Below are positions 1,056 through 55,504 of a stretch of 64,000 nucleotides of DNA, piece by piece. How positions within the stretch are numbered: the first letter of the stretch is position 1; every line of letters begins with the position of its first letter. Below the pieces are notes generated by a model that was given only the letters and a program-made list of their open reading frames with translations, was not told where the DNA came from and did no database searches. The DNA lies in contig NC_086097.1 of NCBI RefSeq assembly GCF_963921235.1, forward strand, positions 44,084,001 to 44,148,000, read 5' to 3'. A program made the position numbers and the translations under genes. Source of the DNA: Mobula hypostoma (lineage: Eukaryota).

Positions 1056-2334
1056 AATGTCCGTCAGCAAAAACTATTGTAGCAGCTAAGCATTCTTCCT
1101 GGTGTCTCGGTGAAGTAGAAGATCAAAGGGTTCTCGAAATATACAGTTAATCCATAAGTTAGCATGGCAATAATAAAAAAAAGCAAACATTTTAATTTAT
1201 TTCCAGCAGATGTTGGGGAGTGATAGTAAATCTGTCTGAAATTTAGTTATACCACATTTAGAGTAAGGTGTACAGTTCTAGTTGGCCATGTTGATACAGA
1301 AACACTGGAACAAGCGCAAGGATGATACCAGAAATATGAAGATATTGATAACGAAGAGAAAAGGGCAGAGAGGTGATCTAACAGAGGTCTCTGAAATAAT
1401 AGAAGTACTCTTTCTGTTTTTATAAGACTCAAAGCAGAAAGAATATTTATACTTGATCAAAGCTTTTATTCAGATAAACAAGAGTTATCAGTGGCTTTAC
1501 ACATGACATCAGGTCAACATTACAGTCAGTGACATGAACGGAAATTAGAAACCAAGAAATAATTAAGCTTTTAAAAATCAGGTAACCTAGCCTTAGGAAA
1601 GCCATTTAACAAGGGATGGCATAGAGACTTCATAATACCCTTTTTTTATAAGGTTGCTCTATATGAACTGGTACAGACATTTTGGGCTGAATGACCTGCT
1701 TTATGCAGTAATAATACAACAGTCTATTACCAAACTTGCTTTGTCTGCATCTGAAGGTAAAGGAGATGAAATCTCTTCTCGTGCATGGAGTTTAACTGAT
1801 CTCTCTAAAGCTGCTGTGAGCATTAAATAGCTGTGGCAAGGATGGGGAAGTGACCTCAATGGGTGAAATAGTCAAAGCACACATGCAAGGTTGTATTTGG
1901 GGAATTACTGATCTCAGCGATCAGTGTTATCTCTTTAAATAGCATGGTTTCAGGGAAACATGGCTGGTAAAATCTGGTTGTTCCATGAATAATTAAGAGC
2001 TGGTGCTCATCAGAGCAGCGAGGTAGAAAATTCCACAAATTTTGTTTCTTATATTGCTGTTCGTCTCTGTGCTATCTTTTGAAAGAGCATTATATCCTTT
2101 CAAAAAATAAGGAGGCAACTCAGTTTTTAACAGCATAGCACCTCTAATACATATCATCTATTTTCTGAAGTCTGTTGAGTACAAGAATTAAGAGTACGTA
2201 TATAAAAGTTATGAACTTCAGGAGAATGCTCAGCTTCAATGGGATATGGTCTGAAATGAAATATCAACCTCTCAAGCACACACACAAAATACTGCTGAAC
2301 GCAGCAGGCCAGGCAGCATCTCGAGGAAGAGGTA

Positions 2335-2372
2335 CAGTCGACGTTTCAGGCCGAGACCCTTCGTCAGGACTA
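2335..2372 (-). ncRNA. Minimal type I hammerhead ribozyme motif (intact core)
   Basis: Minus strand: tagtc CTGACGA agg-gtctcgg-cct GAAAC GTC gactg. This gives stem I, the core, stem II, a loopless palindromic stem III (ACGT) and a GUC cleavage triplet. Confidence 0.75.
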
Positions 2373-2898
2373 ACTGAAGGAAGAGTGAGTAAGGGATTTG
2401 AAAGTGGGAGGGGGAGGGGGAGATCCAAAATGATAGGAGAAGACAGGAGGGGGAGGGATGGAGCCAAGAGCTGGAAAGTTGATTGGCAAAAGGGATACAA
2501 GGCTGGAGAAGGGGGAGGATCATGGGACAGGAGGTCTAGGGAGAAAGGAAGGGGGAGGGGAACCCAGAGGAAGATGGAGAGCAGGCAAGGTGTGATTGTG
2601 AGAGGGATAAAGAGAGAAAAGAGAGAGAGAGAGAGAAAAAAAGGAAAAAAATAACAAACAAACAAACAAACAAACAAATAAATAAATAAGGGATGGGGTG
2701 TGAAGAGGAGGTGGGGCATTAACGGAAGTTAGAGAAGTCAATATTCATGCCATCAGGTTGGAGGCTACCCAGACGGAATATAAGGTGTTGTTCCTCCAAC
2801 CTGAGTGTGGCTCCATCTTGACAGCAGAGGAGGCCATGGATGGGCATATCAGAATGGGAATGGGACGTGGAATTAAAATGAGTGGCCACTGGGAGATC

Positions 2899-3333
2899 CT
2901 ACTTTCTCTGGTGGACAGAGCCTAGGTATTCAGTGAAATGGTCTCCCAGTCTGCGTCGGGTCTCGCCAATATATAGAAGGCCACATCGGGAGTACTGGAC
3001 ACAGAATATCACACCAGCCGACTCACAGATGAAATGTTGCCTCACCTGGAAGGACTGTCTGGGACCCTGAATGGTGGTGAGGGAGGAAGTGTAAGGGCAT
3101 GTGTAGCACTTGTTCCGCTTACAAGGATAAGCCGGGAGGGAGATCAGTGGGAAGAGATGGGGGGTACGAATGGACGAGGGAGTCACATAGGGAGCAATCC
3201 CTGTGAAAAGCAGAAAGAGAGGGGAGGGAAAGATGTGCTTAGTTGTGGGATCCTGTTGGAGGTGGCGGAAGTTACGGAGAATAATATGTTGGACCCGGAG
3301 GCTGGTGGGGTCGTAGGTGAGGACAAGGGGCAC
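2899..3333 (-). pseudogene. Cys-rich linker plus GIY-YIG endonuclease of a Neptune-type PLE (fragment)
   Basis: ORF reads PLVLTYDP...PCKRNKCYTCPY...FICESAGVIFCVQYSRCGLLYIGETRRRLGDHFTEY. A Cys-rich segment before the endonuclease is typical of the Neptune group. Confidence 0.85.
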
Positions 3334-4038
3334 CCTATCCCTAGTGGGGTGGCGGGAGGATGGGGTGAGAGCAGATGTATGTGAAATGGGAGAGACGTGT
3401 TTGAGAGCAGAGTTGATGCTGGAGGAAGGGAAGCCTCTTTCAGTCCTTCCAGGTGAGGTGACACTTCACCTGTGAGTTGGTTGGTGTGACCATTTCACTG
3501 AACACCTACACTCTGTCCGCCAGAGAAAGCAGGATCTCCCAGTGGCCACACATTTTAATTCCATGTCCCATTCCCATTCTGATATGTCAATCCATGGCCT
3601 CCTCTACTGTCAAGATGAAGCCACATTCAGGTTGGAGGAACAACACCTTATATTCAATCTGGGTAGCCTCTAACCTGATGGCATGAGCATTGATTTCTCT
3701 AACTTCCGTTAATGCCCCTCCTCCCCTTCTTACCCCATCCTTTATTTATCTATTTATTTATTTATTTATTATTATCCCTTCCCCCCCCCCTTTTCTTTCT
3801 CTCTCTGTTCCTCTCACAATCACTCCTTGCTTGCTCTCCGTCTTCCTCTGGGCTCCCCTCCCCCTTTCTTTCCTCCCTAGGCCTCCCGTCCCATGATCTT
3901 TCCCCTTTTCCAGCTCTGTATCACTTTTGCCAATTAACTTTCCAGCTCTTAGCTTCACCCTTCCCCCTCCTGTCTTCTCCTATCATTTTGGATCTCCCCC
4001 CTCCCCCTCTCAAATCTCTTACTATCTCTTCTTTCAGT

Positions 4039-4076
4039 TAGTCTTAATGAAGGGTCTTGGCCCGAAACGTTGTCTG
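4039..4076 (+). ncRNA. Hammerhead motif copy with mutated core
   Basis: tagtc TTAATGA a ggg-tcttgg-ccc GAAAC GTT gtctg, homologous to 2335-2372. Confidence 0.55.
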
Positions 4077-4649
4077 TACTTCTTCCTATAGATACTGCCT
4101 GGCCTGTTGCGTTCCACCAGCATTTTGTGTGTGTTGCTTGAATTTCCAGCACCTGCAAATTTTCTCATGTTTGCGTTTTTAATATCAACCTCTCCTTTGT
4201 TTTAGACCACATATTTGATCAGTCTGGATAATTTATGTAAAATATCTCCTTCCAAGATTATCATGCAAAAATGCAGAAAATCTCTTTGTGATCTTCCATT
4301 ATTAGTTGGTTAAATCAACAATTTATTGATCTTTCTACAAGAGCATGAAATTGTGAATTGGCCACCAACTTCACAAACTGAACTTTAGTTTTCTTGACGT
4401 GTCATGCTCCCGAGGCTCCTGAAGAAGTTTGAGACCCCCCGATAATGGCCTCACCACCTAATCTCTGACTTTTAGCTTTCTCTCTCCATGTTTCCACCAT
4501 GCCCCAATTCACTGGTTCAATTTAATTCAGATAGCCACCATCTTCCCCAGGCCCACATCCACAGCCAGAATTTTCATGTCCTCCACTTGTAGTCCAGTGG
4601 AGCCCACATTGGGCTGATAATCTTCTCCCTTGACAGAGTTCAGGACAGA

Positions 4650-12694: not shown

Positions 12695-12805
12695 AAAAAC
12701 TGCAAGTGCTGGAAAACAGAAATAAAAACAGCAATGATTTCAGATCTGATGAAGCTCCTAAGCATGAAACATACACTGTATCTCTTTCCATAGTGCTGCC
12801 TGTGT
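12695..12805. mobile_element. Old PLE terminal remnant with hammerhead-like core
   Basis: cagat CTGATGA agctcctaagcat GAAAC ata cactg...tgctgcctg on the plus strand, directly after an inverted terminus-like tgcaagtgctggaaaa. Confidence 0.4.
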
Positions 12806-13792
12806 GATGAGAGATGTGGGTGAGGATGGTTAGATCCAAGTGCTGGAGTCTCCAAGGCTGAAACTGAGACACGCTGCAAGACTGAAATGAGGACAGAATA
12901 CTAAACTAGACAACAGGCGATAATCCAAGTTGAACTGATGACTGAGCACCGAACCTCCATTCAGGTATTCCTTAAATATTGAATCCAGGAGCCAAAACAT
13001 GGCTGCCAATTCCTGAATCCTTAAAGGGGATGTGCCAGCTATCCATATTCCGGAGAGTTAGAGTGTCTGAGCTCCGGAAGCTGGAGTGGTTGGGTGCATA
13101 TCATAACAGCCTGATCCGCTTAGTTTTTCCAGTATTTTCTCTTCTTATTGTTTTGAGCATTCTGTTCAATAGATGATGAGGCTGCATCAGAGAATAATTG
13201 AACAAAATGATAAATAAGTGATAAATATTATTTGCATTTTTATTTGAAGTCTCCATTATTTCTTGTTATCAAGATCTGGCTTATTCATGTTGAGAGTCTA
13301 CATAATATGATTAAAAACTAGAAAAATACTTTCATGTTAAGCTCAAATAGTTTCAACAAAGCTCACCCTGTACTGTAATTTTACACATATTTTCTTGGCT
13401 GAGCATCTCCAACCTGACCATCTCCCCAAATTTGTTCATACCAGGTTTGGATACAGAAGGTATCCCATGACACAGCATCCCGGGAATATAGTGGCATGAT
13501 CTAGATAGTGGCAGGGTTTTTGTAGCACACTGAGGAAACACTACTCTATTTGAATAAAGTGCCTTCTCCTGCCACTCAGCCAGACTTTCCTTGTGATCTG
13601 TATCCGAAGAGGACATGTGGCACATAGCTACGATCATGTGAATGACTGGAAGATGTAATAAGTCAGAATGTTACAGTAATTTGACAATTTATTAAAAAAA
13701 ACTGCAGATACTGGAAATCTAAAATCACTGAAGGCTTTGACACACATTTGTCAGTTAACAAAATTGTTAAGGTAATATAACAGTTTTGAATG

Positions 13793-16700
13793 TCCATAAG
13801 ATATAGGAACAGAATTAGGCCATTCAGCCCATCGAGTCCACTCCACCGTTTCATCATGGCTGATCTTGGATCCAATTCAACCCCATACACCTACTCTCTC
13901 ACCATATCTCTTGATGCCCTGACCAATCAGGAATCTATCAACTTCTGCTTTGAATATACCCACTGACCTGGCCTCCACTGCAGTCTGTGGCAGAGCATTC
14001 CACACATTCACCATTCTTTGGCTAAAAATATTCATCCTTACTTCTGTTCTAAGAAGTTGGCCCTCAATTTTGATGTCCTCTCCACATCCACCTTATCTAG
14101 TCCTTTCAACTTTCAGTAGGTTTCAATAAGATCCTCCCGAATTCTTCTAAATTCCAGTGAATACAGACCTAAAACTGCCAAATGCTTCTCCTATGCTAAC
14201 CCCTTTATTCCCAGAATCATCTTTGTGAACCTCCTCTAGACTCCCTCCAATGACAATACATCCTTTCTGAGATATAGGGTCCAAAACTGTTGACAATACT
14301 CCAAATGTGGCCTGACTAGTGTCTTATAAAGGCTCAGCATTATCTCCTAGCTTTTATATTCTATTCCTCTTGAAATAAATGCCAACATCGCATTTGCTTT
14401 CTTTATCACAGATTCAACCTGCAAATCAACCTTCTGGGAGTCTTGCAGAAGGACTCCTAAGTCCCTCTGCACCTCTGATGTTTGAATCTTCTCCCCGTTT
14501 AGATAGTAGTCCACACAATTGTTCCTTTTACCAAAACGCATTACCATACATTTCCCAACACTGTATTCCATCTGCCACTTTTTTGCCCATTCTTCCAATT
14601 CGTCTAAACCCCGCTGCAATTACATTGCTTCCTCAGAACTACCTACCCCCCCACCTAGCTTCATATCATCTGCAACCTTTGCCACAAAGAGATCAATTCC
14701 ACTATCCAAATCATTGACAAACAGTGTGAAAAGTACTGACCCCTGAGGAACACCACTAGTCACTGGCAGCCAACCAGAAAAGACCCCCTTTAATCCCACT
14801 GACTGCCTCCTGCCTGTCAGCCATTCCGCTATCCATGCCAGTATCTTTCCTGTAACACAATAGGATTTTATTTTGTTAAACAGCCTTGTGTGTGGCACCT
14901 TATCAAATGCCTTCTGAAAATCTAAGTAATGACATCCACCGTCTCTCCTTTTTCCACTCTGCTTGTTACTTCCTCGAAGAATTCTAACAGATTTGTCAGG
15001 CAAGATTTCTTTTTCAGAAACCATGCTGACTTTGACTTATTTTATCCAAGTACCTGAAACCTCGTCCTTAATAATGAACTCCAAAACTTTCCCACTTCTG
15101 AAGTTAGGCTACCTAGCTTATAATTTCCTCTCTTTTGTCCTCCTCTCTTCTTAAATAGTGGAGTGACATTTGCAATTTTCCAGTCCTCCGGGACCATGCT
15201 AGAATCAAGTGATTCTTGAAAGATCATGACCAATGCACCCGTTATCTCTTCAGCAATCTCTCTCAGGACTTTGGCATGTAGTCCATCTGGTCCAGGTGAC
15301 TGATCTACCTTAAGACCTTTAATTTTGCCTGGCACTTCTTCCTTTGTAATAGCAATGGCTATTCACTCACTCATGCTCCCTGATACTCATGGTCCTAGTG
15401 TCTTCCACAGTAAAGCAAAATACTCATTAAGTTCATCTGCCATTTCTTTGTCCCCCATTACTACCTCATCAGCAACATTTTCCAGTGGTCCAATATCAAC
15501 TCTGTCTTTTTTTTTTGTTTATATAACTGAAAAAACCTTTAGTGTCCTGCTTTATATTATTGGCTGGTCTGCCCTCATATCTCATCTTTTCCCTTCTTAC
15601 AGCTTTTTTAGTTGCCCTTTGTTGAATTTTAAAAAGCTTCCCAATCATCCAACTTCCCACTCACTTTTTCTACCTTATATGCCCTTTCCTTGGCTTTTAT
15701 ACGGTCCTTCACTTCCTTTATTAGCCCTCGGATGCCTAGCCCTGCCTACTATTTGAAAACTTCTTCTTCTGTGGGACATATCTATCCTGCACCTTATGAA
15801 CTATTCTCAGAAACTTCAGCCACCTCTGCTCTGCCATCATCCCCACCATCTTCCTCTAATCCATCTGGGCAAGCTCCTCTCTCATGCCTCTGTAATTCCC
15901 ATTATTCTATTCTGATACTGATACATGTGACTTATGCTACTCCCTCTCACACTGCGGTATGAATTCAATCCCATTATGATCACTGCCTCCTAAAGGCTCC
16001 TTTCATAGAGCTGACTCATAAAATCTGGGTTATTACACAACACCCAATCTAAGATAGCCTTTCCCCAAGTAGGCTCAAGCACAGGCTGCTCTGAAAAGCC
16101 ATCCTGTAGGCATTCAACAAATCTCCTCTCTTGTGATCTGACACCAACCCGATTTTTCCAATCCTCTTGCATATTGAAATCTCCCATTACAATTGTGTCA
16201 TTACCCTTATTACATGGCTTTTCCAGCTCCCTTTGCGATCTCAACCAGACATCTTGGCTATTATTTGGAGCCATTTAATGATTCCCATAATGTTTTTTTT
16301 ACCTTTGCAGTTTCTTAACTCCACCCACAAAGATTCAACATTATTTGACCCTATATCACTTCTTTCTAATGATATAATTCCATCCCTTACCAACAGAGTC
16401 ACACCATCGCCTATGCCTTCCTGCCTGTCCTTTCAATACAAGGTATATCCTTTGATGTTAAACTCCCAACTATGGCCTTCTTTCAGCCACGACTCAGTGA
16501 TGCCCACAATGTCATACCAATCAATCTCTAATTACGCCATGAGTTCGTCCACTTTATTCCAAATGCTACAGACATTTAGATACAACACCTTCACTTCTGC
16601 ATTTTATGCCCTTCTGAATTTTGCCTCTGTGGTACAACTTAACTCCTTGCTCTGTCTGCAGTTGTAGCCAATCATTGGCTTGTCCTTCCATAAATTCATA

Positions 16701-27397: not shown

Positions 27398-30300
27398 ATG
27401 GAGGCTAGTGAATTTATAGAGAACCCTACTCCTCTGTTTTTGAGGAGTGCCAGAAAGGACGTTCTATGTTCCATTGCTAAGAAATGGAAACTTCCTGGAA
27501 TACAGAAAAGTATGACGAAGGCAGGAATTCAGAGGAAAATAGCTGAATACTGTAAACAACAGGAATTCTGCAGATGCTGGAAATTCAAGCAACACACATC
27601 AAAGTTGCTGGTGAACACAGCAGGCCAGGCAGCATCTCTAGGAAGAGGTGCTGCCTGGCCTGCTGCGTTCACCAGCAACTTTGATGTGTGTAGCTGAATA
27701 CTGTGTTGGGATAGAGTTATCTGAGGAGGAGTCGCTACAGGAGTTTCCGATAGGTGATGAGGAGACCCCGTTACGACGAGAACAATCAAGAATGGAGAGA
27801 CTTAAGTTTGAGGCTGCAGAGGCAGAGATACAGAGGGAGTTGGAGAGGGAGGTGCGGCATCAAGAGGGTCAAGTGTCAGGCCGTGGTGGCGAGTGAGGTG
27901 TATCAATTAATGTCAGTAAGGAAATTAAGTTGGTACCTCCGTTTGCTGAAGAAGACGTTGATAGGTACTTCCTACATTTTGAGAAAGCAGCTCAGAATAG
28001 GAAGTGGCCAAGGGTGGACTGGGCAGTATTGCTGCAAAGTGTGTTAAAAGGCGCAGCAAGCATATTCTGCCTTATCTGTGACCGAGTTGACTAATTATGA
28101 TACTGTGAAGGAGGCTGTGCTTAAGGTCTATGAAATGGTGACAGAAGCATACCGACAGAAGTTTCAGGGTTTGAGGAAGTCTGGCTACCAGACATATATA
28201 GAGTTCGCCAATGAAAAGGAGAGGTACTTTGATTGGTGGTGTGCCTCGAAAGAGGTAGACGAGGTAGAGTGTGTCCCTAGTGAGATACAGACGTACGTAG
28301 AAGAGAAAAAGGTTAAGACCCTTTCCGCGGCCGCTAGATTAGTGGATAAGTTTGCCCTGACTCACAAGATTAAGTTTTTCCCGAGCAAGGTTTATCAGAA
28401 GAGTTACCGGGATAATCCGCCGAGTAAAACAGAAAACAAGGCAGGGGTTAGTGACAGAGGTAAAGAGGAGGGGAAACCGACCAAAGATAAGTTTTCCAGT
28501 TTTAACTGTTACTACTGCAGAAAGCCTGGCCATGTGGCATCTAACTGTCTTATTCGGAAGAAAGAAATGGGAAAGGAGAAGGGGAAAACCCCCGAGGCGT
28601 GTGCGCCGGCGGCTGAGACCACACGAAGGAAGGTGGGGTCTGGCCGAGTTCAGGAAGGGATTGAGTGGTTTATTATCAAGGGTTTTGTGTCCATGAAGGA
28701 GGGGTCACCCCTAGTTCCAGTGAGAATCTGGCGCGATACTGGAGCCTTTCAGTCACTGATATTAAGTGATGTCTTAGAATTTGGTGATGAGACAAAAACG
28801 GACTGAGTGAATATTCTGGAAGGTATTGGCAAGGGAACAGAGGTCGTACCTTTGCACAAAATAATTTTGAAATGTGATTTAGTGTCTGGACCAGTTGAGA
28901 TAGGGATACGACCTAAATTACCGATAGCTAACGTGGACGTCTTGTTGGGAAATGACCTGGCAGGAAAAGATGTATACCCGGGGTTACAGCTAACAAGCCA
29001 GCCTGCTGTTAGTGAGACAAGCACAGACAGTGAACAGTGAACTTTATCCCGCATGCGCGGTCACAAGAAGTATGACAAGGAAGTCTGCAGAAGTGAAGCG
29101 ATCTGGATGGGAGGGGTCAGGTGCCCGCGATAGCAAAGACAGGGGTATGGATCCTACTGGCTTATCTGAAACTTTTCTACCGTCTGTGTTCGACCAGGAC
29201 CCAGGTAGTGAGGCGGATAGGAGGGGTTTGTCATTGTCCAGGCGGAAGCTTGTGGAAGAGCAGGATAGGGATCCTGAGGTTGCAGTTTTAAAAGAGACAG
29301 CTCTTTCTGAGGACGAAATTCAGAGGGAGTCAATGAGTTATTATCTGAAGGATGGGCTATTAATGAGGAAGTGGAGGCCACCAACACTACCTGCCGATGA
29401 GGATTGGGCCGTGGTGCACCAGGTGGTGGTTCTGAAGGGTTACTGTACAGAAATTTTAAAGATGGCTCATACAATGCCTTTAGGGGGACATCTTGGAGTT
29501 GGAAAGACAGGGCACAAGATTATGAAAGAATTTCATTAGCCGGGTATAAGAAAGGATGTGGCGTTTTTTTGTAAAACTTGTCACACATGTCAAGTGGTAG
29601 GAAACCGAATCAGACTATCCCAAAAGCGCCACTTCGCCCCATACCAGCTTTTGGCGAACCTTTCTCCAGGGTCAATGTGGATTGTGTTGGTCCACTGCCA
29701 AAGACTTCAGGTGGCCACCAATACTTGTTAACCATTATGTGCACTGCCTCTAGGTTCCCAGAAGCAATACCCCTCAGGAACCTAAAGGCTAAAACAGTGG
29801 TGAAGGCACTTATTAAGTTCTTCACGTTAGTGGGTCTGCCCAAGGAGATACAATCAGATCAGGATAGTAATTTTACATCAGGTGTATTCTAATGGATAGT
29901 TAAGGAACTGGGAGCGAAACAAATTTTATCCATGGCATACCATCCGCAATCCCAGGGAATGATAGAGAGGTTTCAATCTACCCTCAAAACCATGATTAAA
30001 ATGTGCTGTATGGAAAACGAAAAACATTGGGATGAGAGTATACTTTTACTCCTATTTGCAATAAGAGATTCGACCCAGGAATCGTTGGGGTTCAGTCCGT
30101 TTGAGCTCGTGTTTGGTCATAGGCCTCGAGGACCTTTGACCTTACTGAGAGAGCAATGGTCTGATAAGGAAGCGCGAATTGGTGTATTGGATTATGTCTT
30201 AGAGTTTCAAGACAAGCTGAGCAGGGCTTGTGACCTTGCGAAACACAATCTGCAAGACTCTCAGGCTGATATGAAGCGCTGGTATGACAGACAGGTGAGG

Positions 30301-35238: not shown

Positions 35239-35786
35239 GAGTCATATACAGTATCCGGTGCTCCTGATGTGGCCTCCTGTATATCACTGAGCAGCTACAC
35301 GCCATCTGCCAAAAAAAGTGGGATCTCCTTGTGGGCACCTATTTTAATTCCACCTCCCATTCCCATTTCAACACGTCAGTCGATGATCTCCTCTACTGTC
35401 ACGATGAGGCCACACTCAAGTTGGAGGAGCAACACTTTATATTCTGTCTGGTTAGCACCTGATGGAATGAACATCAATTTCTCAAACTTCCAGTAATGGC
35501 CCCCCTAACTTCACCATTCCCCATTCCTGTTTCCATCTCTCACCTTATCTCCTTGCCTGCCTACCACCTCCCTCTGGTGTTCCTCCTCCTTCCCCTTCTT
35601 CCGTGGTCTTCTGTCCTCTCCTATCAGGTTGCCTCTTCTGCAGCCATTTATCACCTTCACCAATCAACTTCCCAGCTCTTTACTCCTTCACCCCTCCCCC
35701 TCTCCTGGCATCATCTATCACCTACAACCTTATACTTCTTCCTCTCCTCCCCCCACCTTCTTACTCTTACTTCTCCTCTTCCTTTC

Positions 35787-35824
35787 TAGTCCCGATGAAG
35801 GGTCTTGGCCTAAAACGTTGACTG
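35787..35824 (+). ncRNA. Hammerhead motif copy, mutated
   Basis: tagtc CCGATGA agggtcttggcct AAAAC GTT gactg. Confidence 0.5.
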
Positions 35825-41956: not shown

Positions 41957-42039
41957 TGTTGTGTCTGTGTACAACTACATATCAATTAAGTAAAAGCAAG
42001 CACACGGGAGATGGCTTTAACTGGGGTATTCACATTGCA

Positions 42040-42081
<42 letters not shown>

Positions 42082-42157
42082 ACAATGTGCACATGCAGAC
42101 AACAGATCAATACGTAGTGCTAAGGGGGGGGACGTCATTACTCTAAAAGAAGTGATC
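41957..42157 (-). repeat. 5' LTR, outer end truncated, with expanded (GT)n(GA)n
   Basis: Homologous to 37665-37855. Microsatellite at about 42040-42080. Confidence 0.8.
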
Positions 42158-42994
42158 TTTGAGTCATGCTGTTATGGAAGGCAGAACAGAAATTGAGGTG
42201 ATTTAACCCAATAAATCCATGCTGGCTCACTCCAGTCAATCCAATTCCCACTCCATCTCCAGTGACCTTCATATTTATTTCCCTGATTCATATTCCATTT
42301 GAAATAATTGATTGTCTCGGCTTCTGTTACCCTTGTAGACAGAAAGTTCAAGGTCGTTTTCATCCATTGGGTAAAAAATAGACTCTCTCCCTTCTTCCCT
42401 GCATTTCCCCTGCACTGCTTGCCCAAAAGCTTAAGCAGTGTCCTTGAACTCCTCTCATGGGAGCAGCTTTTGGCCACCTTATATAAACCTGTTATAATCT
42501 CGTATACATTTTAAAAATTTCCTTTCAATTGCCGATAATACAACTTTAACTTCTCCAGCCTAACCTTGCAACTTGATCTTCCTCCCTGGAACGATTCCTG
42601 TAAATCTGCTCAGCAGTCTTCATACTCTTCTTAGAATGTGCTGACCACAACTGGCTGTGGTAAACCTATCCACCTCAATAACTTTGCTTATGAAGCTGAG
42701 GATCCCATATGTTTTGCTAAGCACCTTTAAAAAGACAGACCTAGAGCAGAGTTACTGGGTTAGTAGTTCAGAAGCCTGGAACTAATGACCTCTGGAGAAT
42801 TTAATACAGAAGCCATTGTGGCAGTGGGGGAATTTAAATTCAATTAATTAATGATGACCATTATGTTAATAAATTGCTGTAAAAATCCTTTCTTTGAAAT
42901 TGTGGTCTTCACTTGCTGAGTCTGTATACGCATAGGAAGGTGACTAGCTTTTCAGTGCCCTCTGATGCCATTCAGTTCAAAGGAAATGCTAATA

Positions 42995-43737
42995 CAGGTC
43001 GAGTACTCCTTGTCCAAAATTCCAAAATCCAAAAACCTCCAGAATCTGATATTTTAGTGGAAAGTTGCAAAAGGCACTGGGGAGTTTCCAGGCAATGAGC
43101 ATGTTTCAGCACACCACAAACAGTTCTGAGAAGTGACCACACATTTGTAACAAACAGAACTTAATGAAAAATAGAAAAACATTGCATGAAGTGAAAAATG
43201 AGGATCTCAGTCTTGAATTGGAAGAATGGATTCATCAGCATCGGAGTAAACATATGCCACTTAACGATATGCTGATCATGAAATGAGCAAATATCCATCA
43301 CGGCAAGCTGAAAATTGAATGTAATTGTTTCATACACAAAATTATTAAAAATATTCTATAAAACTAACCCCCGCTCCTGTTGTAGTTGTTGTGGAGTGGG
43401 TGGCGGTTTGAAATTGATGGCAGATATGAAGTCCATTGCTGTGCTGGAACCTGGTAGAAGATGTGGTGGGGGAGGGGGGTGGTCATTCAACTCTGACAGT
43501 TTGTGGAGAACCCAGTTCCATCCATCCTGAGGTTCAACTGTGGATTGTTCATTCTGTGAGCTTCACACCAGCTGTAAATAAGCTGCATATGTAATGTAAA
43601 TGGAGCTTGCGTTTAGACTTGGCTCCCATCCCCAAGGTATCTCATTATTTAGATGCAAGTAACTCAAAATCTGGAAAATTCCAAAATGCAAAACACTTCT
43701 GGCCCCAAGCATTTTGAATAATGGAAGCTCTGTCTGA
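42995..43737 (+). mobile_element. Tigger/pogo-like DNA transposon deletion derivative
   Basis: ta|caggtcgagtactcc..tccaaaattccaaaatcc terminus, a CENP-B-type HTH remnant LEEWIHQHRSKHMPLNDMLIMK, and a degenerate right end. Confidence 0.65.
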
Positions 43738-45008
43738 TTTACTGAGAAACAACTCTTGTATGGCAGCAGTGACTATAATTCAAGATTGTTTATTAGTAAT
43801 GAAATACGAACAGCTGTCATAAAATAATTATTTTTCTAAAGGTATGTTAGGGCTTGTCCAAAGAGAAATGACTTAAAGGAGAGCAAGTGGAAAGATAGAA
43901 AGATATAGAGAATGAGTTCAAGAGATTAATGCATTGGCATGGCCATAGTCCTCTGAGGTAATGTTCATCACATAAAGGAGGCACAAGAACCAGAGCTAGA
44001 GCAATTTCTCATTCTTGGAGAAAGTTTCAGAGGAAGGGAAGTGGGAACCTAAAGCGGGGTCAGAACATAAAACTTTTAATTTGAGTTAGTGTTGGACTTC
44101 AAGTTGATATTAGAGCACAGGAGTGACAATACGAATAGGACTTCACGTTAATTAGTATACAGGCACCAAAATTCTCAATAAGCTCATATTTGAGTAATTA
44201 TATTTTCTCCATAAGTGCTTGTGTAACAATGTGCTTCCTAATAGCATCAGCCATAGACCACCAGTAAGCCATACAGCAGTGTGAACGGTGGTAGGATTGT
44301 ATGTTTTATGATAATGAATGTGCACAACTGCCTGAGGAAATACCAGAGCACAGTGAGAGAACAACACCTACGGGTAGTTGGCTCGGAAAGGTTAGAACAA
44401 TTTGAGGAAACAAGTTTACCTAGAGTCAGAAATAGCAAATCAAGGAAGAGAATGGTACTAGATATTAAATTGCAAAGTGGACAAAAAACAAATTGCCAAG
44501 CTCAGTGAACACTGCAACATCAAAGCCTACAGTTTACTTAGAAGTGTAATGGCTCCAACTAAACCAGATGAAATGAGCTTTGCTGATATTGTGAACATAA
44601 TGCAGGAACATTTAGAACCAAAACCGTTGTTGATTGCAGAACACTTTATGTTTCATACGTGCAATTAAAGGAAGGGAAGTCTATTTCAGCTTAGGTGGCT
44701 GAATTAAATAAATTGTCCAAGAATTGCCATTCAGTAATGGGTTTAATGAGATGCACTGAGAGATTGTTTAGTTTGTGGAATCTTGCAAGAAAGCATTCAA
44801 AAATGGCTCCTAACTGAAGCTCAACTCACATTTAAAAGAGCAGTTGAAACCACTGTATCAATACAAACAGCAGCTAGAGATGCAATTGAGTTGCAATCAG
44901 GAATGAAAGTGAGCATGAACAAATTGTGTTACTGTTTTAGCAGGGGCTCACAGATTTTTAAAGGCAAAGCTTGCAGAAAATGCAACAAAGTAAGCCACAT
45001 ACAAATAT

Positions 45009-45888
45009 TGTAGCCTGGGGAAAAATACACCCGCAGGACAACAAATACTTTTTCGGGTCTTAAATTCCTTTATCTGTTTTAGATGTTTTATTACAGAAAG
45101 AGGATATCAACATAAAAACAACAAAATAAATTTTTAAAAAAACAGTTCCCACCATTACAATCTCAGTTTAACTTCAGACAACACCCTTGTTACGTATGCA
45201 GTATGAAAATAACTAAAACAAAATATACAAAACCAATACAGTATTGGCAATTCTAAAAAAAACAATACAAACAATGTTAGAATCCCACCAAACCTGTACA
45301 CAGTATCAAAAATATGAATAAATACATCTCATCTCAACTAAGAAATACTCACATTTGGCACACACGTGCTTAACTTCCAAACACATAGGCTAGACCTTGA
45401 ATGTGTTCTCCTCACTCATGCTACGTGAACAGACATTAGCACATTCACATTACTTTGTTACATTCATACTCAGTCATGAAACAATAAAGAAAGACAAATA
45501 AACTTTTACAATATATTGCCTTGTAGTCGAATTACTAAAAAGACTAACCTAGTAGGCCAATTAAGGAACTTCGCAATCAAGCTATCCAGCACTGATCACC
45601 CACATATATAACACGCCAGATTACTGATATTCAAGATTTACAAGCAAGTATAAATGAATTTACATGGATATTAGCAAATATGATTTACCTTTCCTCACCA
45701 AACCTGGGAAAAGCATTCAAATGTCATTATTTCTAGAAAATGGCAACTATTCATGATACTCCACCCATGCAAAATGACATCACTGTTTTCTCTTAAAGGC
45801 ACAGGCAGCTACTTCAGCACTACCAAGGAGAATACATAAGCGCATTTTAACAATAAAAAATTATATTCAATGGCCACCTGGTTAAACA
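45009..45888 (-). mobile_element. Candidate solo LTR inserted in Gypsy gag
   Basis: An 880-bp non-coding block with tgt...aca ends interrupts the zinc-knuckle codons. Flanks aatat / aaaat are an imperfect TSD. Confidence 0.5.
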
Positions 45889-46109
45889 AAAATCATGTCA
45901 GGCAGACAAAAATAAATGGACTGCACAGAGAAGATAAAAAGTCAAGTTAGTTTCAAAAGTAGCTCTAATCTGCATGTGATTAATGAAAAATCTGATAAAG
46001 ATGAGAGTGACACAGGACTAGCTAGCCTTGAGATTTATAATGTGAAAGCCAATAAGAGACAAGCAATATGGTTTACAGCAGAAATGAATGGCAAACTTGT
46101 GTGGTAGGT

Positions 46110-47104
46110 CAGGTTTAACAAATTTATAGAGTTTTTTGAGGAGTTTTTCGGTGCTGGGTACTTTGTTTTTTGTCATTTAAATCGATGATCTGGATGATAA
46201 TGTGGTTAACTGGATCAGCAAATTTGCGGATGACACCAGGATTCGGGGTGTAGTGGACAGTAGGAGGATCTGCATCAGCTGGAAAAATGGAAGATTGAAT
46301 TTAATGCAGACAAGTGTGAGGTTTTGCACTTTGGTAGGACCAACCAGGGTAGGTCTTACACAGTGAATGGAAGGGCACCAAGAACTTTGGCAGAACAAAG
46401 GGATCTAAGATACAGGTCCATAATTCTTTGAAAGTGGTGTCATGGGCAGATAGGGTCATAAACAAAGCTTTTAGCACATTGGCATTCATAAATCACTGTG
46501 TGGAGGACAGAAGATGGGATGTTATTTTGAATTTGTATAAGACGTTGGTAAGACCTAATTTGAAGTATTGTGTGCAGTTTTGGTCACCTACCTACAGGAA
46601 AGATGTAAACAAGGTTGAAAGAGTGCAGAAAAAATTTACAAGAATGTTGCCTTGTCTGAAGGATCTGAATTACTGTATAAGGAAAGATTGTAAAGGTTAG
46701 GACTGTATTCTTTAGGATACAGAAGATTGAGAAGACATTTTATAGTGGTATACAAAATTATGAGGGGTAAATGCAAGCAGGCTTTTTCCACTGAGGTTGC
46801 GTGAGACTACAACCAAGGGTCATGGGTTAAGGGTGAAAGGTGAGAAGTTTAAGGGGAACATGAGGGGAAACTTCTTCACTCACGGGCCTGTGAAAGTGTG
46901 GAATAGGCTGCCAGCACAAGTGGTGCATGTGAGCTCGATTTCAACATTTACAAGAAATTTGGATAGTTATATGGATTGTAGGGGTATGGAGGGCTATGGT
47001 CCCAGTGCAGGTTGATGGCAATAGGCAGTTTAAATGGTTTCAGCATGGAGAATGGGCTGAAGGGTCTACTTTGGTGCTTTACTTCTCTGTGACTCCATGA
47101 CTCT
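46110..47104 (+). mobile_element. CR1 LINE 3' part
   Basis: KFADDT, LYKTLVRPNLKYCVQFWSP, TKGHGLRV and a gactccatgactct tail. Confidence 0.85.
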
Positions 47105-47269
47105 AAATTGATTAAAAAGGAATAGTCAGACACTGTACTCACACATTATGATCCACACCATCCAGCGAAGCTCACCTTACAGTATAGATACAGTCATGTC
47201 ACACGCTATGAGTGATGGAAGTGAACACCACAATAATATTTGCATCACGTTCCCTTACCACTGCAGAGA

Positions 47270-47810
47270 AAACACATGCATGGAGAGCATTCTGACAGGC
47301 TGCATCACTGTCTGGTATGGGGAGCTACTGCACAGGACTGAAAGAAGCTGCAGAAGGTTGTAAATCTAGTCAGCTCCATCTTGGGTACTAGCCTACAAAG
47401 TACCCAGGACATCTTTAGGGAGCGGTTCTCAAAAAGGCTGCGTCCAATATTAAAGACCTCCAGCACCCAGGGCATGCCCTTTTCTCACTGTTACCATCAG
47501 GAAGGAGGTACAGAAGCCTGAAGGCACACACTCAGCGATTCAGGAACAGCTTCTTCCCCTCTGCCATCCGATTCCTAAACGTACATTGAATCTTTGTACA
47601 CTACTTCACCTTTTTTTTATATACAGTATTTCTGTTTTTCTGCACAGTTTTAAAATCTATTCAATATATGTAATTGATTTACTTGTTTACTTATTTTATT
47701 TATTTTTTTTTCTCTCTCTGCTAGATTATGTATTGCATTGAACTGCTGCTGCTAGGTTAATAAATTTCACGTCACATGTCGGTGATAATAAACCTGATTC
47801 TGATTCTGAT
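47270..47810 (+). mobile_element. Rex1/Babar LINE 3' end
   Basis: ESILTGCITVWYG, HPGHALFSLLPSGRRYRSL and a (ctgatt)n tail. Confidence 0.85.
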
Positions 47811-50800
47811 ACTTGAGTCTGGTTTGGGGTGTAAAACATTTCAGCCAGTACTTTTATGGGAGAGTTTACCCTCATCACTGATCTTCAACCACTACTGTCC
47901 ATTTTCAATCCACAGAAGGGAGTTCCACTAACAGCAGAGACACAAGTGCGGAGGTGGGCTCTGTTTCTTGGAGAACACAACTACAAGGTTGAATTCAGGA
48001 GGACAATTAATCATGGAAGTGCTAATGGATTGTTTGGTTTACCCCTTGAAAAGTAAATAACTGAAAAAGTTACAAAAGAGGACACTCCTCTTGATGCATT
48101 CCCCCTAATGCAAATTGAAAGTCTCCCTTTTACGGCAGAGATAATCTATAGGGAAACCAGCAAAGACCCTGCACTATCTCAGGTCTTCATGCCAACCCAA
48201 AATGGCTGGAACGTGCAGTAGAAATTCCAGTTCCCCCATTTTCACTAGCACTGTAATGAACTTGCACTTGAGAGAGGTTGCCTTATGTGGGGATTGACAG
48301 TTGTACCATCCAAGCTGAGAGCTATATGTTCCATGCTGGTCATCTAGGTGAGATCAAAATGAAAGCATTGGCTCGAAGCTTCGTCTGGTGGCCACAGCAG
48401 ATCGAACAGCTTGGCATACACTGTTCAGAATGCCAACACATCCAGAAGATGCCAGGAGCAGCACTCCACCCTCCCTGGGAATGGTCTGCATTCTCTTGGC
48501 AGCAGATTCTTGTGGATTTTATTGGACCTTTCATTTGCACAAATTTCTTGGTAGTAGCGGATGCAGCTACAAAGTGGCCAGAAGAGTTCCCAATAGCCTC
48601 CCCTACGGCCTCACACACTGTTGGTGTGTTGAGAAGCTTCTTTGCAAGGACTGGTGTTCTCGAACACTTAGTCGATGACAATGGATCACAGTTTGTGGTG
48701 GAACAGTTTCAGTCATTCCTGAAAATGAATAGAATAAGACAAATTACATCTGAGGCATACCGCCCGGCTACAAATGCTGAAAAGGTTTGTCTAGAGTCTA
48801 AAGAACGTACTGTGAGCAACGTCAGCAGAACACACTGCATGACACCGAATCAGAAGCTCGCCAATTTCTTCCTTGCATATCACAATGTACCACACTCCAC
48901 AACCAACACCTCACCAGCTCTGCTGTTCCTGGCTCGTCCCTTACACTCACGCTTGGATCTCCTCAAACCCAATCTCAGGAGGAATATGCAGGACAAACAG
49001 CTGAGGCAAATTGAGGGCTCCTCAAACAAAGAGGTTCGATGTTTCACACCCAGACAAGCAGTCCTAGCAAGCGACTACGGAGCTGATCAAAAGTGGGTAC
49101 TTGGAAAGATTAGGGACAGAACTAGACCATTTTCCTATACAGTGGAGATTGCGTATAATGTCATCTAGAGGCGATACATCGAACAACTGAGGAGAGCAAC
49201 GTCAACTGTTAGAGAAGAAAGGTGTCTAAGTATCGACTTTTGTTCATCTCCACCTTGCCAGAGATTTATCTATCCTCATACGTTTTACCTTCATATATTA
49301 TTCTGTCTGAATGTCCATTCTTTGGATTGCAGATGAAGGATTAATTTGTGTCTCTTTCAGCAGGTACTTCCTCTCCTCCTCTCTTTTTATTTCTGATTTC
49401 CTCTATCAACTGTTCTTGATTTTCACTTACAAGATTCAATGCCTATACAAATAAAAAATTGTTCACAAACAAAAGTTGGTACAGGACAGTGACAAAAAAG
49501 AATTTAGTTCGACGAACATTAGGATAAATTACGGCACTGGCGAAGTTTCAGTATTTCGGACAATACTCCACATTTACCTGAAACCAAGTAGCACTTCGAC
49601 ACAATTATAACGTGTCCCAGGTAAAAAAGGGATCAATATCCATGAGAGAGACTGAGGTCATCCACAATGGTGTGACAACTTTTGATTGTGTCATACTGCA
49701 TGATTGAAGACATCTGCCATCATCTTTATAAAAACAGAAGTGTTCAAACCATTGAAAGCACAATAAGAAGTATTCTGAGCATTTGTGTCAGAATTATTTT
49801 GGGAGGTAAAAAAAATGGCTATGGATTTTTATTCTGACGTCCTGTTGAAGGGAAAATGTCTAGTTTAAGCATTTTCTTTCTGTCTTTTATGTTGTTGGAC
49901 TGATGAAACAAAATCTACTTTCTCCTTAAAACCAGAGAAATAGCATCCGCAGCATTTAAATATGTGAATGTTTGGATTAATCAGATATTTGCTGCCTGTT
50001 GTTCTCAGACAAAAGGTGTGTGGAGAACTCTGTGCTTCAGCAACAAAGAGAGTATTCACTTTTTGTATTGCGAGTACTTAATACTTCACAAAGCCTGAAT
50101 GATTCACAAAGATCTCAAATTTTAATGTCCTCTCCTGCTTCACACACATGCACAGTTGAAATAACTGAAACGTTTGCTTAATAATAAATTGCTATAATTA
50201 GCTGTATTAATAATGAATTGCAGTGTTTAGCTGCATTGATTATATGGGTCTTAATCAAATTGTTTTTGCATATTCAGTGGATAATGCTTTGTTCCTGTTT
50301 TATTTAAATAGTTTTTATGGGCTAGACAGGCTTGGGAAAGGAGCAGCTTTGGGACTTAATTTAACTTGGCAAGCATTACAGTCTTAAACAGCTGCCAAAT
50401 AATCTGTATCCTACCAGACAGCCGGACCAATTGGACTAGTAAATGAAGCGAGAAGCTCCTGTAAATTTCTTACAAGAAGAAGATTGAGAGCACACTGCTT
50501 TCTTGTCCTTTCCCAAAGAAAAATAAACAACTTCTATGACCGTTCAGCTTTTTAAGATGATGACCCCTGTATAATTAATGCCATCATAACGCTGGCTTTG
50601 CTTTAGTGGTAATAGTTTTGTCTCTTTATCAAAAAGTTGTGGCTTCAAGACAAAACCTAGGTTTAGGCTGAGTAACCCTCTATGACACTTTTGGGTGATG
50701 TGATCACTTCTGCCTTCTCTAATGTCTCATGGCTGACAAATATATCAAAGATCTGAAGAGTTCTTCTACTTTCCTTGCTTATATTCATTGTGCTGTCTAC

Positions 50801-52274: not shown

Positions 52275-52575
52275 TAATACCGGAGAGCATGCACTTAAGG
52301 TGAAATTTCTAAAAGAGACATGAGGGGCAAGGTTTTACACAGAGAGTGGAGGGTACCTGGAATGTGCTGTCTGGGCTGCTGGTAGAGGCAAATACATTAG
52401 AGACTTTTAAGAGATGTTTAGATAGGCACACGAATGTGAGGGAAATGGGAGAATATGGACGTGGTGTAGGTAGAGGGGATTAGTTTAGTTGACCATTTAA
52501 TGACCAATTTAATTGGTTCGGCGCAACATTGTTGGCAGAGGGGCCTATTCCTGTGCTGTAATTTCTATATTGTAT
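52275..52575 (+). mobile_element. CR1 LINE 3' end
   Basis: ttttacacagagagtgg..cctggaatg...tttagataggcaca...gggcctattcctgtgctgta. Confidence 0.65.
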
Positions 52576-53049
52576 CCTGCTTCAATTTGCTTCAACTAGG
52601 TAATTTTTATATTTTGAGAAAGATAAAAATGGATTGAGGTTCACTTTGCTTAACACCTCTGGAAATTTTATCTTCATGTATACTTTAGTAATAAAGTTAA
52701 TTTGGCTCCAGTCTAACTTCAGTGAAGTCTGGTTTCTGAAGTAACACGGCTTGGAATTCGTATCACACAACTAACCAAAAATAGTACAGTAGAAAATCAT
52801 CTTAACTGAGATTAGCAGTTATTGGCAGTAACTGACATTACATCCATATTACTTCAAAATTACATCTATTCCTGGGCCTCTTTATGCTGTTATGAAGCCC
52901 TTTACTTTCAGAAGGTTGATTGTGTTACTTATGTCACTTTTGCACGAGTCTCATCCAAATTACGTCAACAGTAAATTCAAGCTTGAATTTAAGAGGTAAT
53001 TTTTAAATTAACTAGCACTCCCCCCCTAAAATGATCATTCTTATTTACT

Positions 53050-53673
53050 CAAACATGAGGAAATCGGCAGATGCTGGAAATTCAAGCAACATACACAGAA
53101 AATGCTGGTGAACGCAGCAGGCCAGGCAGCATCTCTAGGAAGAGGTACAGTCGACGTTTTGGGCCGAGACCCTTCGTCAGGACTAACTGAAGAAAGAGTC
53201 AGTAACAGATTTGAAAGTGGGAGGGGGAGGAGAGATCCAAAATGATAGGAGAAGACAGGAGGGGGAGGGATGGAGCCAAGAGCTGGAAAGGTGATTAGTA
53301 AAAGGGATACGAGTCTGGAGAAGGGAGAGGATCATGGGATGGGAGGCCTAGGGAGAAAGAAAGGAGGGGGAAACCCAGAGGATGGTCAAGGAGTTATAGT
53401 GAGAGGGATAGAGGGAGGAAAAAAAAGGGTACCCTTTCTTTCTCCTGTCCCATGATCCTCTCATGTCCCTTTTGCCAATTACCTGTCCAGCTCTTGGCTC
53501 CATCCCTCCCTCTCCTGTCTTCTCCTATCATTTCAGATCTCCCCCTCCCCCTCCCACTTTCAAATCTTTTACTATCTCTTCTTTCAGTTAGTCCCAAAAC
53601 ATCGACTGTACCTCTTCCTAGAAATGCTGCCTGGCCTGCTGCGTTCACCAGCACTTTTTGTGCATGTTGCTTG
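53050..53673. mobile_element. 624-bp fold-back insertion of PLE 3' region
   Basis: TSD attcttatttact (53037-53049, 53674-53686). The inverted arms meet at the palindrome aaagggtacccttt (~53424-53437). Confidence 0.9.
53148..53185 (-). ncRNA. Hammerhead motif copy (GAAA mutated to AAAA)
   Basis: Minus strand: tagtc CTGACGA a ggg-tctcgg-ccc AAAAC GTC gactg. Confidence 0.6.
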
Positions 53674-55504
53674 ATTCTTATTTACTAACAGAATAACAGA
53701 TTCTGCCAGTTTTGCCTTAAACTGGACTTTGAAAGGTTCAACACTCAAACTGCACTCTTTGTCCTCACTGTGACTTTGATTCCTTTCATGTATGCCTGGT
53801 CTGTTTTGCCTGTAGAAGTCATGGTCACTCTATGTTTCCTAGTCTCAGGGCCATTGATCTCTACTACATCAAATAGTTCGCTACTCACTGTTACATTAAC
53901 AAGGTCACCTAAACACCATCTGTTTTTCCTTCTATCCACAGAAGCAGAGAGCACCTGTACAGAGACTGACAGAATTGCAGTCTCCCCCACAACCCAGGCA
54001 TTCATATACAGCAGTCATAATAATAGTACCTATTAAGACTTCCCTGCCATCCTCCTACAAGTGGGACATTATTGTAGCTGTGGAGGGTCTCTACGGTTCC
54101 CTTGCACAAAAATATGCATCTTGTGGGCATTGTTCTCCATTAGCCTGTTCAAGAGCACATTGTTCTTCACTGGCCTGATCAAAACCTACAGGCCCCATCG
54201 ACCTCCCATCGTTACAACATCCAATCAATAAATAGCTTCATTCTAAATTAGCCGGTAAATGGCAATGAGAAAAAAGAAGGCTATGTAAATAAGGTTCTCT
54301 CTGTCAGTGCAGAGCTTTTATATCGCTCCACATTTTGAACCATGGAGTCTGAGACCCTTGTCACCACAGGCTAAAGCTTCCGAAAACCTTTTGCTCTTTG
54401 ACAAACACAAAGTAAATCCTGATGAGGTGTGCAAAGACAGAGTGATGCCTAACTGGGTCACCTTTTCCTCCATCCCTGTACCCAATTCAGTGCCAAATGC
54501 ATTCCTTGTACTCAACTAAGTTGATCAAATGTGCAACCTTGATGTTTGGACATAGCCTTTGCTTAGGCCTGATTCCAAGAGGAGACACTCTAAGATCACT
54601 CTGCTCTGTAAATATAATATGAAAGGTAGTGTGTTGCAATTCTCTGATCATGGGAAGGACTGGATCCTTCTGGTTAACTAGTGCCTAACTTAACTTGGGA
54701 AGCTTTTAACTAATAAATTGCTAACCTATCTTGCTCCTTTGGTTTTGGTAAGTACTTAGAGCTTGTAGTCTTCGCTTTGTGCGAACTAAATCCATTGCAC
54801 CAGACAAACGAGCAAAAAGAAAGAAGATACCAGCTTTCTGATAGGCTGATTGGAACTTCAAAGGCAGGTGCACTGAACTACGAACCACAGATGATCAACT
54901 ACACCCACCATTGAGCTAGAATGGACTTTGACCCTGGATGGTCATTGCACTGTTCCTACATAACGTAAGGCCATGATAATGAATCACTAAAGGAAAATTA
55001 TTTCCTATTCATCAAGCAGGACAAAGAGTTAGGAGGAAACAGATAGGCATCACTGTGATGAACTCACTGCTCTTGATGATAGGATCCTAAGTAGATCAGT
55101 TATTCTACCTGCCTCTTAACCAAGGTAGGGTCAATAAACATAAATATCTATGCTTCAGCACCATGCTGTACCATAGGGATCAAAGTTGGAATTTGTCATT
55201 GCCATCAGAACTATCCCTTAGACAGACTGGGGAATTAGCGGTACTGTATCATGAAATATGGCTACTATGCCCTTAAAATCATGAAATTGGAAATATGTAT
55301 AGAAATGGAGACAACTTGAGCTATTCTGCTACGCTCTTTTTCTGGACAAGCTATACAATAAGGCGGCTTAGAGATATCCAAGTTCAGAAAATTGGCACCA
55401 GTTGGTTCTGGTCGTTACTATATTTGACTATCCTAATGGGATCCTGAAGATGTACGATTATTGCCGTGCTGACGTGGCATAGATCACTCTCTGTTGTACA
55501 CAAA

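What the first reader, a model, noticed from the sequence alone, without database searches (positions are those of the whole stretch)
2260..53686. Three PLE fold-back insertions share one architecture: outward-facing 3' ends, 13-14 bp TSD and a one-sided 32-41 nt tail
Seen: inserts 2274-4180, 27554-27690 and 53050-53673 each consist of the same PLE 3' region in both orientations, flanked by perfect TSDs of 14, 14 and 13 bp. In each, one arm reaches the full terminus. The other stops within the same ~10-nt window (gtgttgcttga), leaving about 41, 38 and 32 unpaired nt. The short end shows 1-2 nt or looser microhomology to the TSD. Known: PLEs form inverted arrangements with a short unpaired tail in invertebrates. 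Inference: both nicked target strands prime DNA synthesis at two stereotyped positions near the RNA 3' end. That would give a retrotransposition pathway producing MITE-like palindromes from 0.1 to 2 kb. This is the strongest candidate for an under-described system in the window.
Basis: partly seen in the sequence, partly recalled or inferred. Interest (0 to 1): 0.8.

Follow-up and report, generated by a model that had tools for sequence, protein, structure and literature searches.

The report
Head-to-head Penelope insertions in a ray
These are three real, dead insertions of a Penelope-type jumping gene in a ray genome, each made of two back-to-back end pieces inside one duplicated target site, a layout already described for these elements; the largest shows that neither half was copied from the other, so both cut DNA strands likely started their own copy from RNA.

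Summary
Observation confirmed. The three inserts carry exact TSDs of 14, 14 and 13 bp (0 of 3000 random pairs reach 13), outward-facing 3' ends and one-sided tails of 41, 39 and 33 nt. Two have empty sites: C in a related species, B in paralogous Gypsy copies. Contigs show both termini recur across the genome. The family is an endonuclease-bearing Penelope-like element, probably Neptune, in a myliobatiform ray. It is not under-described: inverted copy, TSD and one-sided 30-40 nt tail are the published PLE unit (PMC3846280, PMC8557442), and nicking and extension of both strands from two start sites that define the tail was shown in vitro (PMC11167929). What the window adds: in A each arm holds sequence the other lacks, which excludes snap-back copying of one arm from the other and favours two separately primed cDNAs; A's arms may come from different RNAs. 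An explicit dual-priming model for the inverted unit was not found in seven searches. This scan noted the same structure before, in this genome and at least 13 genomes. 'MITE-like' is not supported. New member of a known kind; interest 0.3.

The parts
2260..2273 (.). A: left TSD copy (14 bp)
   Evidence: exact repeat of 4181-4194
2274..3441 (-). A: tail-less arm, 1168 nt; 3' end faces left; reaches from RT thumb region through linker and GIY-YIG endonuclease to the 3' non-coding part
   Evidence: 78% identity to P0001 residues 130-384 over 3441-2677
2340..2367 (-). A: minimal hammerhead ribozyme core motif (only intact core in the three fold-backs)
   Evidence: pattern match with a recalled core motif; no Rfam hit at gathering score
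3441..4180 (+). A: tailed arm, 740 nt; lacks the first 384 nt and an internal 65 nt held by the other arm; 1-nt overlap with it at 3441
4140..4180 (+). A: unpaired tail, 41 nt
4181..4194 (.). A: right TSD copy
27540..27553 (.). B: left TSD copy (14 bp), in the internal region of a Gypsy LTR retrotransposon
   Evidence: present once in paralogous Gypsy contig
27554..27649 (-). B: tailed arm, 96 nt; tail 27554-27592 (39 nt)
27649..27690 (+). B: tail-less arm, 42 nt; 1 exact shared base and 5 of 6 matching bases at the centre
27691..27704 (.). B: right TSD copy
53037..53049 (.). C: left TSD copy (13 bp)
53050..53429 (-). C: tailed arm, 380 nt; tail 53050-53082 (33 nt)
53424..53437 (.). C: 14-bp perfect palindrome across the centre, with 2 bases (53430-53431) belonging to neither arm
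   Evidence: sequence
53432..53673 (+). C: tail-less arm, 242 nt, with three small internal deletions
53674..53686 (.). C: right TSD copy
   Evidence: present once at the orthologous site of organism D

Best explanation
A, B and C are single, 5'-truncated insertions of an endonuclease-bearing Penelope-like retrotransposon, likely of the Neptune clade, each with two outward-facing arms inside one 13-14 bp target duplication, and they likely formed when both nicked target strands primed their own reverse transcript from element RNA. Steps: (1) the GIY-YIG endonuclease nicks both strands 13-14 nt apart leaving 3' overhangs (inferred from TSD geometry; two-strand cleavage shown in vitro for the lizard element PAc). 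(2) One 3'-OH starts near the family's far terminus without base pairing; the other starts 33-41 nt further in, helped by 1-2 or more paired bases (two termini shown here; start-site meaning shown for PAc, inferred here). (3) Both cDNAs stop early at unrelated points and are joined head to head through 0-1 exact shared bases (junctions shown; joining inferred). (4) Host repair fills the second strands and fixes the TSD (inferred). The stretch between the two start sites is left as the one-sided tail. Whether one RNA is read twice or two RNAs are used is open; A leans to two, B fits either. The copies are dead remnants.
For: Exact TSDs, 0 of 3000 by chance. Empty site of C in organism D: one contig joins 53024 to 53674 with 13 letters between (12 expected) and the TSD once; both C junctions are present in organism B. 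Empty site of B: contig of depth 43.9 joins 27539 to 27691, 14 letters fit either side. Long terminus recurs with unrelated flanks: 543, 540, 551, 689 contigs at 53050 in four runs, 514 and 405 at 27554. Short terminus recurs: 249 contigs in run X3 continue about 11 element bases past 27690 and then run into unrelated sequence (median 255 letters, agreement 0.42). Other head-to-head joints with varied centres: 12 of the 15 joints shown of 49. A's arms are not nested: the tail-less arm has 384+65 nt the other lacks, the other has 41 nt it lacks. Family: homologues with RT YIDD motif, CX4CxxC linker and GIY-YIG. PAc cleaves and extends both strands and starts at two sites that bound the tail; predicted dimer (PMC11167929).
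Against: No activity was tested. B and C short arms are nested in their long arms, so they alone do not exclude fold-back copying, and C has a palindrome at its centre of the kind read as self-priming in PMC3846280. A, the decisive case, has no empty-site test. One long plus one short end in 3 of 3 has probability 1/8 under free choice, and PAc showed no start-site difference between strands. The short terminus was among the six rows shown for X3 but not among the six for X13 (351 rows hidden), so its spread is not measured. The two copies of the more distant family are single-armed without TSD.
Confidence: 0.68

Rival explanations
1. Snap-back or self-priming: one cDNA (or an antisense template, as proposed in PMC3846280) folds back and copies itself; the tail is left by endonuclease resolution of the intermediate (as suggested in PMC8557442).
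For: 14-bp palindrome at C's centre; B arms 40 of 41 identical and nested; published readings.
Against: A's arms each hold sequence the other lacks; A and B centres have no palindrome; short ends show primer-like overlap with the TSD in 3 of 3 (p about 0.02); A's tailed arm has 3 clear and 1 alignment-dependent older-family states absent from its partner.
Confidence: 0.15
2. One TPRT event whose second arm was made by a DNA-level template switch or later gene conversion from another genomic copy.
For: Unequal arm divergence in A (6 vs 24 private changes) fits a different donor; copies are very abundant (87,839 contigs laid in one run).
Against: A DNA donor has no reason to stop at the same two termini or to leave an exact TSD; head-to-head joints are common.
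Confidence: 0.1
3. Two independent insertions at one site at different times.
For: Arms of A look like different lineages.
Against: One TSD encloses both arms and no second duplication lies at any centre; empty sites of B and C lack both arms.
Confidence: 0.04
4. MITE-like non-autonomous palindromes that move as whole units (by a transposase or by retrotransposition of a hairpin RNA).
For: B and C fold into long hairpins.
Against: Ends are not flush, every centre differs, TSD length matches PLE use; no one-strand A-to-G excess in A's tailed arm (2 of 33 changes) or C.
Confidence: 0.03

Closest known systems
Typical EN+ PLE insertion unit, e.g. Pen2a_Av and Pen2_Av of Adineta vaga (PMC3846280; passages and Discussion read) and Fig. 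2 legend of PMC8557442 (passages read)
   Same: Adjacent inverted 5'-truncated copy, head-to-head, one TSD round the whole insert, 30-40 bp tail at one end only, microhomology junctions and deletions, palindromes at some centres.
   Different: TSD 13-14 bp here against 8-10 bp in Adineta; here both arms are 5'-truncated and no direct pLTR remains; vertebrate host with very many copies; that paper favours self-priming, which A contradicts.
PAc, Poseidon of Anolis carolinensis, in vitro (PMC11167929; abstract and main results read, supplements not read)
   Same: Both strands cleaved and extended; two adjacent RT start sites whose interval is the tail; hammerhead upstream of the start sites; AT-rich targets.
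   Different: Poseidon clade lacks the linker zinc finger found here; the paper does not discuss inverted insertions or TSDs and saw no strand difference in start site, whereas 3 of 3 units here pair one long with one short end.
LINE-1 twin priming (recalled, no call)
   Same: Two target 3' ends each prime a cDNA; one TSD; microhomology at the internal join.
   Different: In L1 the two cDNAs copy different, non-overlapping parts of one RNA; here both copy the same 3' region, so the RNA is read twice or two RNAs are used.
MITEs (recalled, no call)
   Same: Short, hairpin-forming, high copy.
   Different: No flush terminal inverted repeats, variable centres, retroelement coding remnants, 13-14 bp TSD.

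Membership tests
EN+ Penelope-like element | C-terminal GIY-YIG endonuclease after RT in one ORF | tested here: met
   Window 3441-2677 is 78% identical to P0001 130-384; P0001 and P0003 match Pfam GIY-YIG at E 0.0005 and 0.001, just under the curated cut-off, with the RT YIDD motif upstream. The window's own fragment had no Pfam hit.
EN+ Penelope-like element | [quoted passage not shown] | tested here: met
   Homologues carry both cysteines and downstream histidines; in A one cysteine is mutated, copy D keeps both; definition from PMC8557442.
EN+ Penelope-like element | Minimal hammerhead ribozyme near the end | tested here: met
   Core motif intact in 2 of 6 arms tested (A tail-less arm, copy E), decayed in 4 (recalled motif; class described in PMC4209133). 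No Rfam hit. Cleavage not tested.
EN+ Penelope-like element | Inverted 5'-truncated copy, TSD, one-sided 30-40 bp tail | tested here: met
   3 of 3 fold-backs; tails 41, 39, 33 nt.
EN+ Penelope-like element | Direct pLTR / partial tandem in full-length copies | tested here: inconclusive
   No full-length copy in the window; one contig in X13 goes back 92 bases head to tail.
EN+ Penelope-like element | RT phylogeny sister to telomerase | not tested
   RT core is not in the window; no tree built.
Neptune clade | CX2-5CxxC linker zinc finger between RT and C-terminal EN | tested here: met
   CX4CxxC in A and in homologues; shared with Nematis, absent in Penelope/Poseidon.
Neptune clade | RT groups with Neptune rather than Nematis | not testable with these tools
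   No named reference set at hand; only Neptune and Poseidon were reported in vertebrates in bioRxiv 10.64898/2026.07.22.740005 (passage).
MITE | Flush terminal inverted repeats | tested here: not met
   One end overhangs by 33-41 nt in 3 of 3.
MITE | Many copies of one unit with the same interior | tested here: not met
   Three different centres in the window; varied centres among joints shown; most joints were hidden, so rare amplified units are not excluded.

The most novel reading that the evidence does not exclude
PLE integration is an asymmetric double target-primed reaction: a two-protomer complex nicks both strands 13-14 nt apart and one protomer starts at the far site while the other is forced to the inner site, each able to use a different RNA molecule, so that one insertion can fuse two subfamilies; in addition the inner site may itself be an insertion target, which would explain contigs that join a long end to a short end tail to tail (8 contigs). 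These ray fold-backs would then be a large natural record that makes the unresolved second half of the PLE cycle testable.
Probability: 0.35. Interest if true: 0.58.

Novelty: new member of a known kind. Interest (0 to 1): 0.3.

Why it matters
The architecture is known, so the finding is not a new system. Its value is as evidence on an open point: how PLEs make inverted insertions. Published readings were self-priming (PMC3846280) or endonuclease resolution (PMC8557442); in vitro work shows both strands extended from two start sites but does not connect this to inverted units (PMC11167929). A non-nested pair such as A is a simple genomic test that favours two primed cDNAs. Short 13-14 bp TSD-flanked fold-backs with verified empty sites are also usable presence/absence markers for ray phylogeny, and they would be mis-annotated as MITEs by hairpin-based finders.

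Tried and rejected
Summed contig depth is not a copy number and was not used as one. Two scans of metagenome contigs for further copies found 0. Rfam: 0 hits. Folding of the terminal 141 nt and of hammerhead stretches was not better than shuffles (z -0.15 to -1.50), so the predicted terminal stem-loop is not evidence. Four-arm test of sisterhood was uninformative: 4, 3 and 1 sites for the three groupings in 232 columns. Relative-rate tests were mixed: A arms 10 vs 33 (p 0.0006) and 6 vs 24 strict (p 0.0014) against C's long arm, but 5 vs 11 (p 0.21) against C's short arm and 10 vs 5 (p 0.30) in the endonuclease part against copy D; C arms 5 vs 19 and 4 vs 15 against A's tail-less arm, but 7 vs 10 and 9 vs 10 against A's tailed arm; the significant A and C tests are not independent. 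Perfect TSDs beside diverged arms (p about 0.03) are only a hint, since C's arm divergence (9.5%) is within the flank divergence to organism D (103 of 1035), which bounds its age. RNA-editing scar: not seen. The clustering of joint positions at 27649 and 53627 was set aside as a probable alignment effect. Loose-end piles at 53097, 53147, 53184 and 27598 were read as subfamily differences, not termini. No TSD or second arm for copies D and E.
Full report
Observation. Exact direct repeats flank them: 2260-2273/4181-4194 (14 bp), 27540-27553/27691-27704 (14 bp) and 53037-53049/53674-53686 (13 bp). In 3000 random position pairs at the same spacings, with a more generous search window, the longest repeat was 12 and 0 reached 13. 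Each insert reads, on the + strand, as an antisense arm then a sense arm of one element 3' region, so both 3' ends face out. One arm in each runs 41 (A), 39 (B) or 33 (C) nt further than the other. The short ends lie within 7 nt of each other on the element, the long ends within 8 nt. The TSD overlaps the element's continuation at the short end by 2, 1 and 1 exact bases, and in B by a looser gapped match over about 10 bases; the chance of at least one base in all three is about 0.02. The long ends show no overlap. Arm identities are 86.7% (694 columns), 97.6% (41) and 90.5% (241).

What the element is. The A arm at 3441-2677 (minus strand) is 78% identical to residues 130-384 of P0001, one of 10 hits, all from Mobula hypostoma or Hypanus sabinus records; the host is therefore a myliobatiform ray (inference). 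These homologues carry the RT motif YIDD, a CX4CxxC linker and a GIY-YIG domain with two internal cysteines (Pfam score just under the curated cut-off). By the definitions in PMC8557442 (passages) the linker finger excludes Penelope/Poseidon and points to Neptune or Nematis; a 2026 preprint reports only Neptune and Poseidon in vertebrates (passage). No tree was built. A minimal hammerhead core (recalled motif) is intact in 2 of 6 arms tested; Rfam gave nothing. A profile search found two more copies with a 3' end, 34036-35925 (split by a solo LTR) and 58612-58747; they are 65-80% identical to A-C, single-armed, and have no TSD of 7 bp or more. So 3 of 5 such insertions in the window are fold-backs, all from the younger family.

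Single events. No genome is held, so I laid contigs of public runs. For C: in organism D one 1711-letter contig covers 52400-53024 and continues at 53674 with 13 letters between, against 12 expected if the TSD is present once; both arms are absent. In organism B (runs X6 and X8, one sample) contigs enter the insert from both flanks, so C is shared; flank differences are 22 of 1279 to B and 103 of 1035 to D. For B: it lies inside a Gypsy element, and a contig of depth 43.9 in run X3 joins 27539 to 27691 with 14 letters fitting either side, i.e. paralogous Gypsy copies hold the TSD once. A was not tested. X3 may be the sample the window came from.

Two termini across the genome. Contigs with long unrelated overhangs pile up at the long end: 543, 540, 551 and 689 at 53050 in four runs; 514 and 405 at 27554 plus 169 and 186 at 27561. 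At the short end, 249 contigs of X3 continue about 11 element bases beyond 27690 and then run into unrelated sequence (median 255 letters, agreement 0.42). This row was not among the six shown for X13, and 351 rows were hidden, so the spread and the ratio of the two ends are not measured. Of 49 joints, 15 were shown and 12 of these are antisense-to-sense joins with different centres; one search lists 388 joints, 15 shown, 9 of them joining the left arm to the right arm. Head-to-head units with varied centres are therefore common.

Mechanism. The geometry fits two nicks 13-14 nt apart with 3' overhangs, each 3'-OH extended into the element's 3' end. The decisive anatomy is in A: the tail-less arm holds 384 nt upstream and 65 nt internally that the tailed arm lacks, and the tailed arm holds 41 nt that the tail-less arm lacks. 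Neither can be a copy of the other, so simple snap-back fails there. B and C are nested and do not discriminate; C's centre is a 14-bp palindrome with two unassigned bases, the feature that PMC3846280 read as self-priming (Discussion). Centres of A and B share one exact base between arms. One RNA or two: B's arms differ at one CpG only. A's tailed arm carries 3 clear and 1 alignment-dependent states of the older family that its partner, B and C lack, and has 33 private changes against 10 (6 against 24 after dropping CpG and near-gap columns, p 0.0014) with C's long arm as reference; but the test is not significant with C's short arm (5 vs 11) or in the endonuclease part (10 vs 5), and a four-arm test gave 4, 3 and 1 sites. 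I put two different RNAs for A at a little over even odds. No editing signature was seen.

What is known. PMC3846280 (passages) calls this the typical Penelope structure, also seen in flies and fish: an adjacent inverted pLTR, a 9-10 bp TSD, and a 31-bp tail on one inverted end. PMC8557442 (passages) draws it for all endonuclease-bearing clades and ascribes the tail to endonuclease resolution. PMC11167929 (abstract and results read; supplements not read and they may bear on this) shows that the lizard element PAc cleaves and extends both strands, starts at two sites whose interval is the tail, and is predicted to dimerise. Its main text never discusses inverted insertions or duplications, and it saw no strand difference in start site. 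Seven searches found no paper stating a dual-priming model for inverted PLE units or describing this ray family; the library lacks most subscription papers and Repbase. LINE-1 twin priming and MITE features are recalled, not read.

Earlier notes of this scan (unchecked) describe the same structure in this genome and in at least 13 genomes. One claims 89 of 91 pairs have the tail on one arm only, which I could not test; others disagree on one versus two templates. They are not counted as support.

Verdict. A real, well-supported set of insertions of a known kind. The residual novelty is the genomic argument from non-nested arms, the possible strict pairing of one long with one short end (3 of 3 here, probability 1/8 by free choice), possible use of two RNAs, and an unexplained tail-to-tail joint between long and short ends in 8 contigs. 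Interest 0.3.

Noticed in passing
contigs of run X3 laid on window 27400-27850, joint 27554 to 27587: Eight contigs (depth 63.7) join the element's long 3' end to its short 3' end on opposite strands, tail to tail; one listed joint (27588 to 27554) has only 6 terminal element bases between. Could be insertion into older copies at the inner site, tandem fold-back units, or one amplified junction. Absent from X13's row.
   Followed up: no
loose ends at 53050, 27554 and 27691: Flank consensus is T-rich downstream of both the long and the short end in each arm's own sense, which a shared TSD alone does not predict.
   Followed up: no
53183, loose ends behind: 287 and 308 contigs (X3, X6) break off with long unrelated AT-rich overhangs just upstream of the hammerhead core, suggesting a favoured 5' boundary that gives units of about 134 nt; copy E (58612-58747) has about that extent.
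   Followed up: no
26508-32934: Gypsy LTR retrotransposon with two LTRs (4.3% different outside CpG) that hosts insertion B; about 10-fold contig depth suggests several paralogues.
   Followed up: partly
34036-35925: Older single-armed PLE copy split by a solo LTR (about 34399-35237) with a 4-bp duplication; its 5' junction has a 13-bp perfect inverted repeat (34009-34045) that may be a templated copy of the flank.
   Followed up: partly
13697-13723 and 12740-12802: Small, weak fragments resembling the element's terminal region.
   Followed up: no
3488-3489 and 53444-53450: Internal deletions in the second arms of A and C are bounded by 2-4 base microhomologies; could be template jumps during synthesis or later repair.
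   Followed up: partly
39794-48272 and 61235-63981: Further broken LTR-retrotransposon coding remnants, and LINE RT remnants near 14620-15036 and 56348-57431, judged by eye from ORF translations.
   Followed up: no
one search hits P0005, P0006, P0010: Ray gene models named for host genes (chitinase domain, kinase, mucin) include this PLE's coding region, probably annotation chimeras.
   Followed up: no
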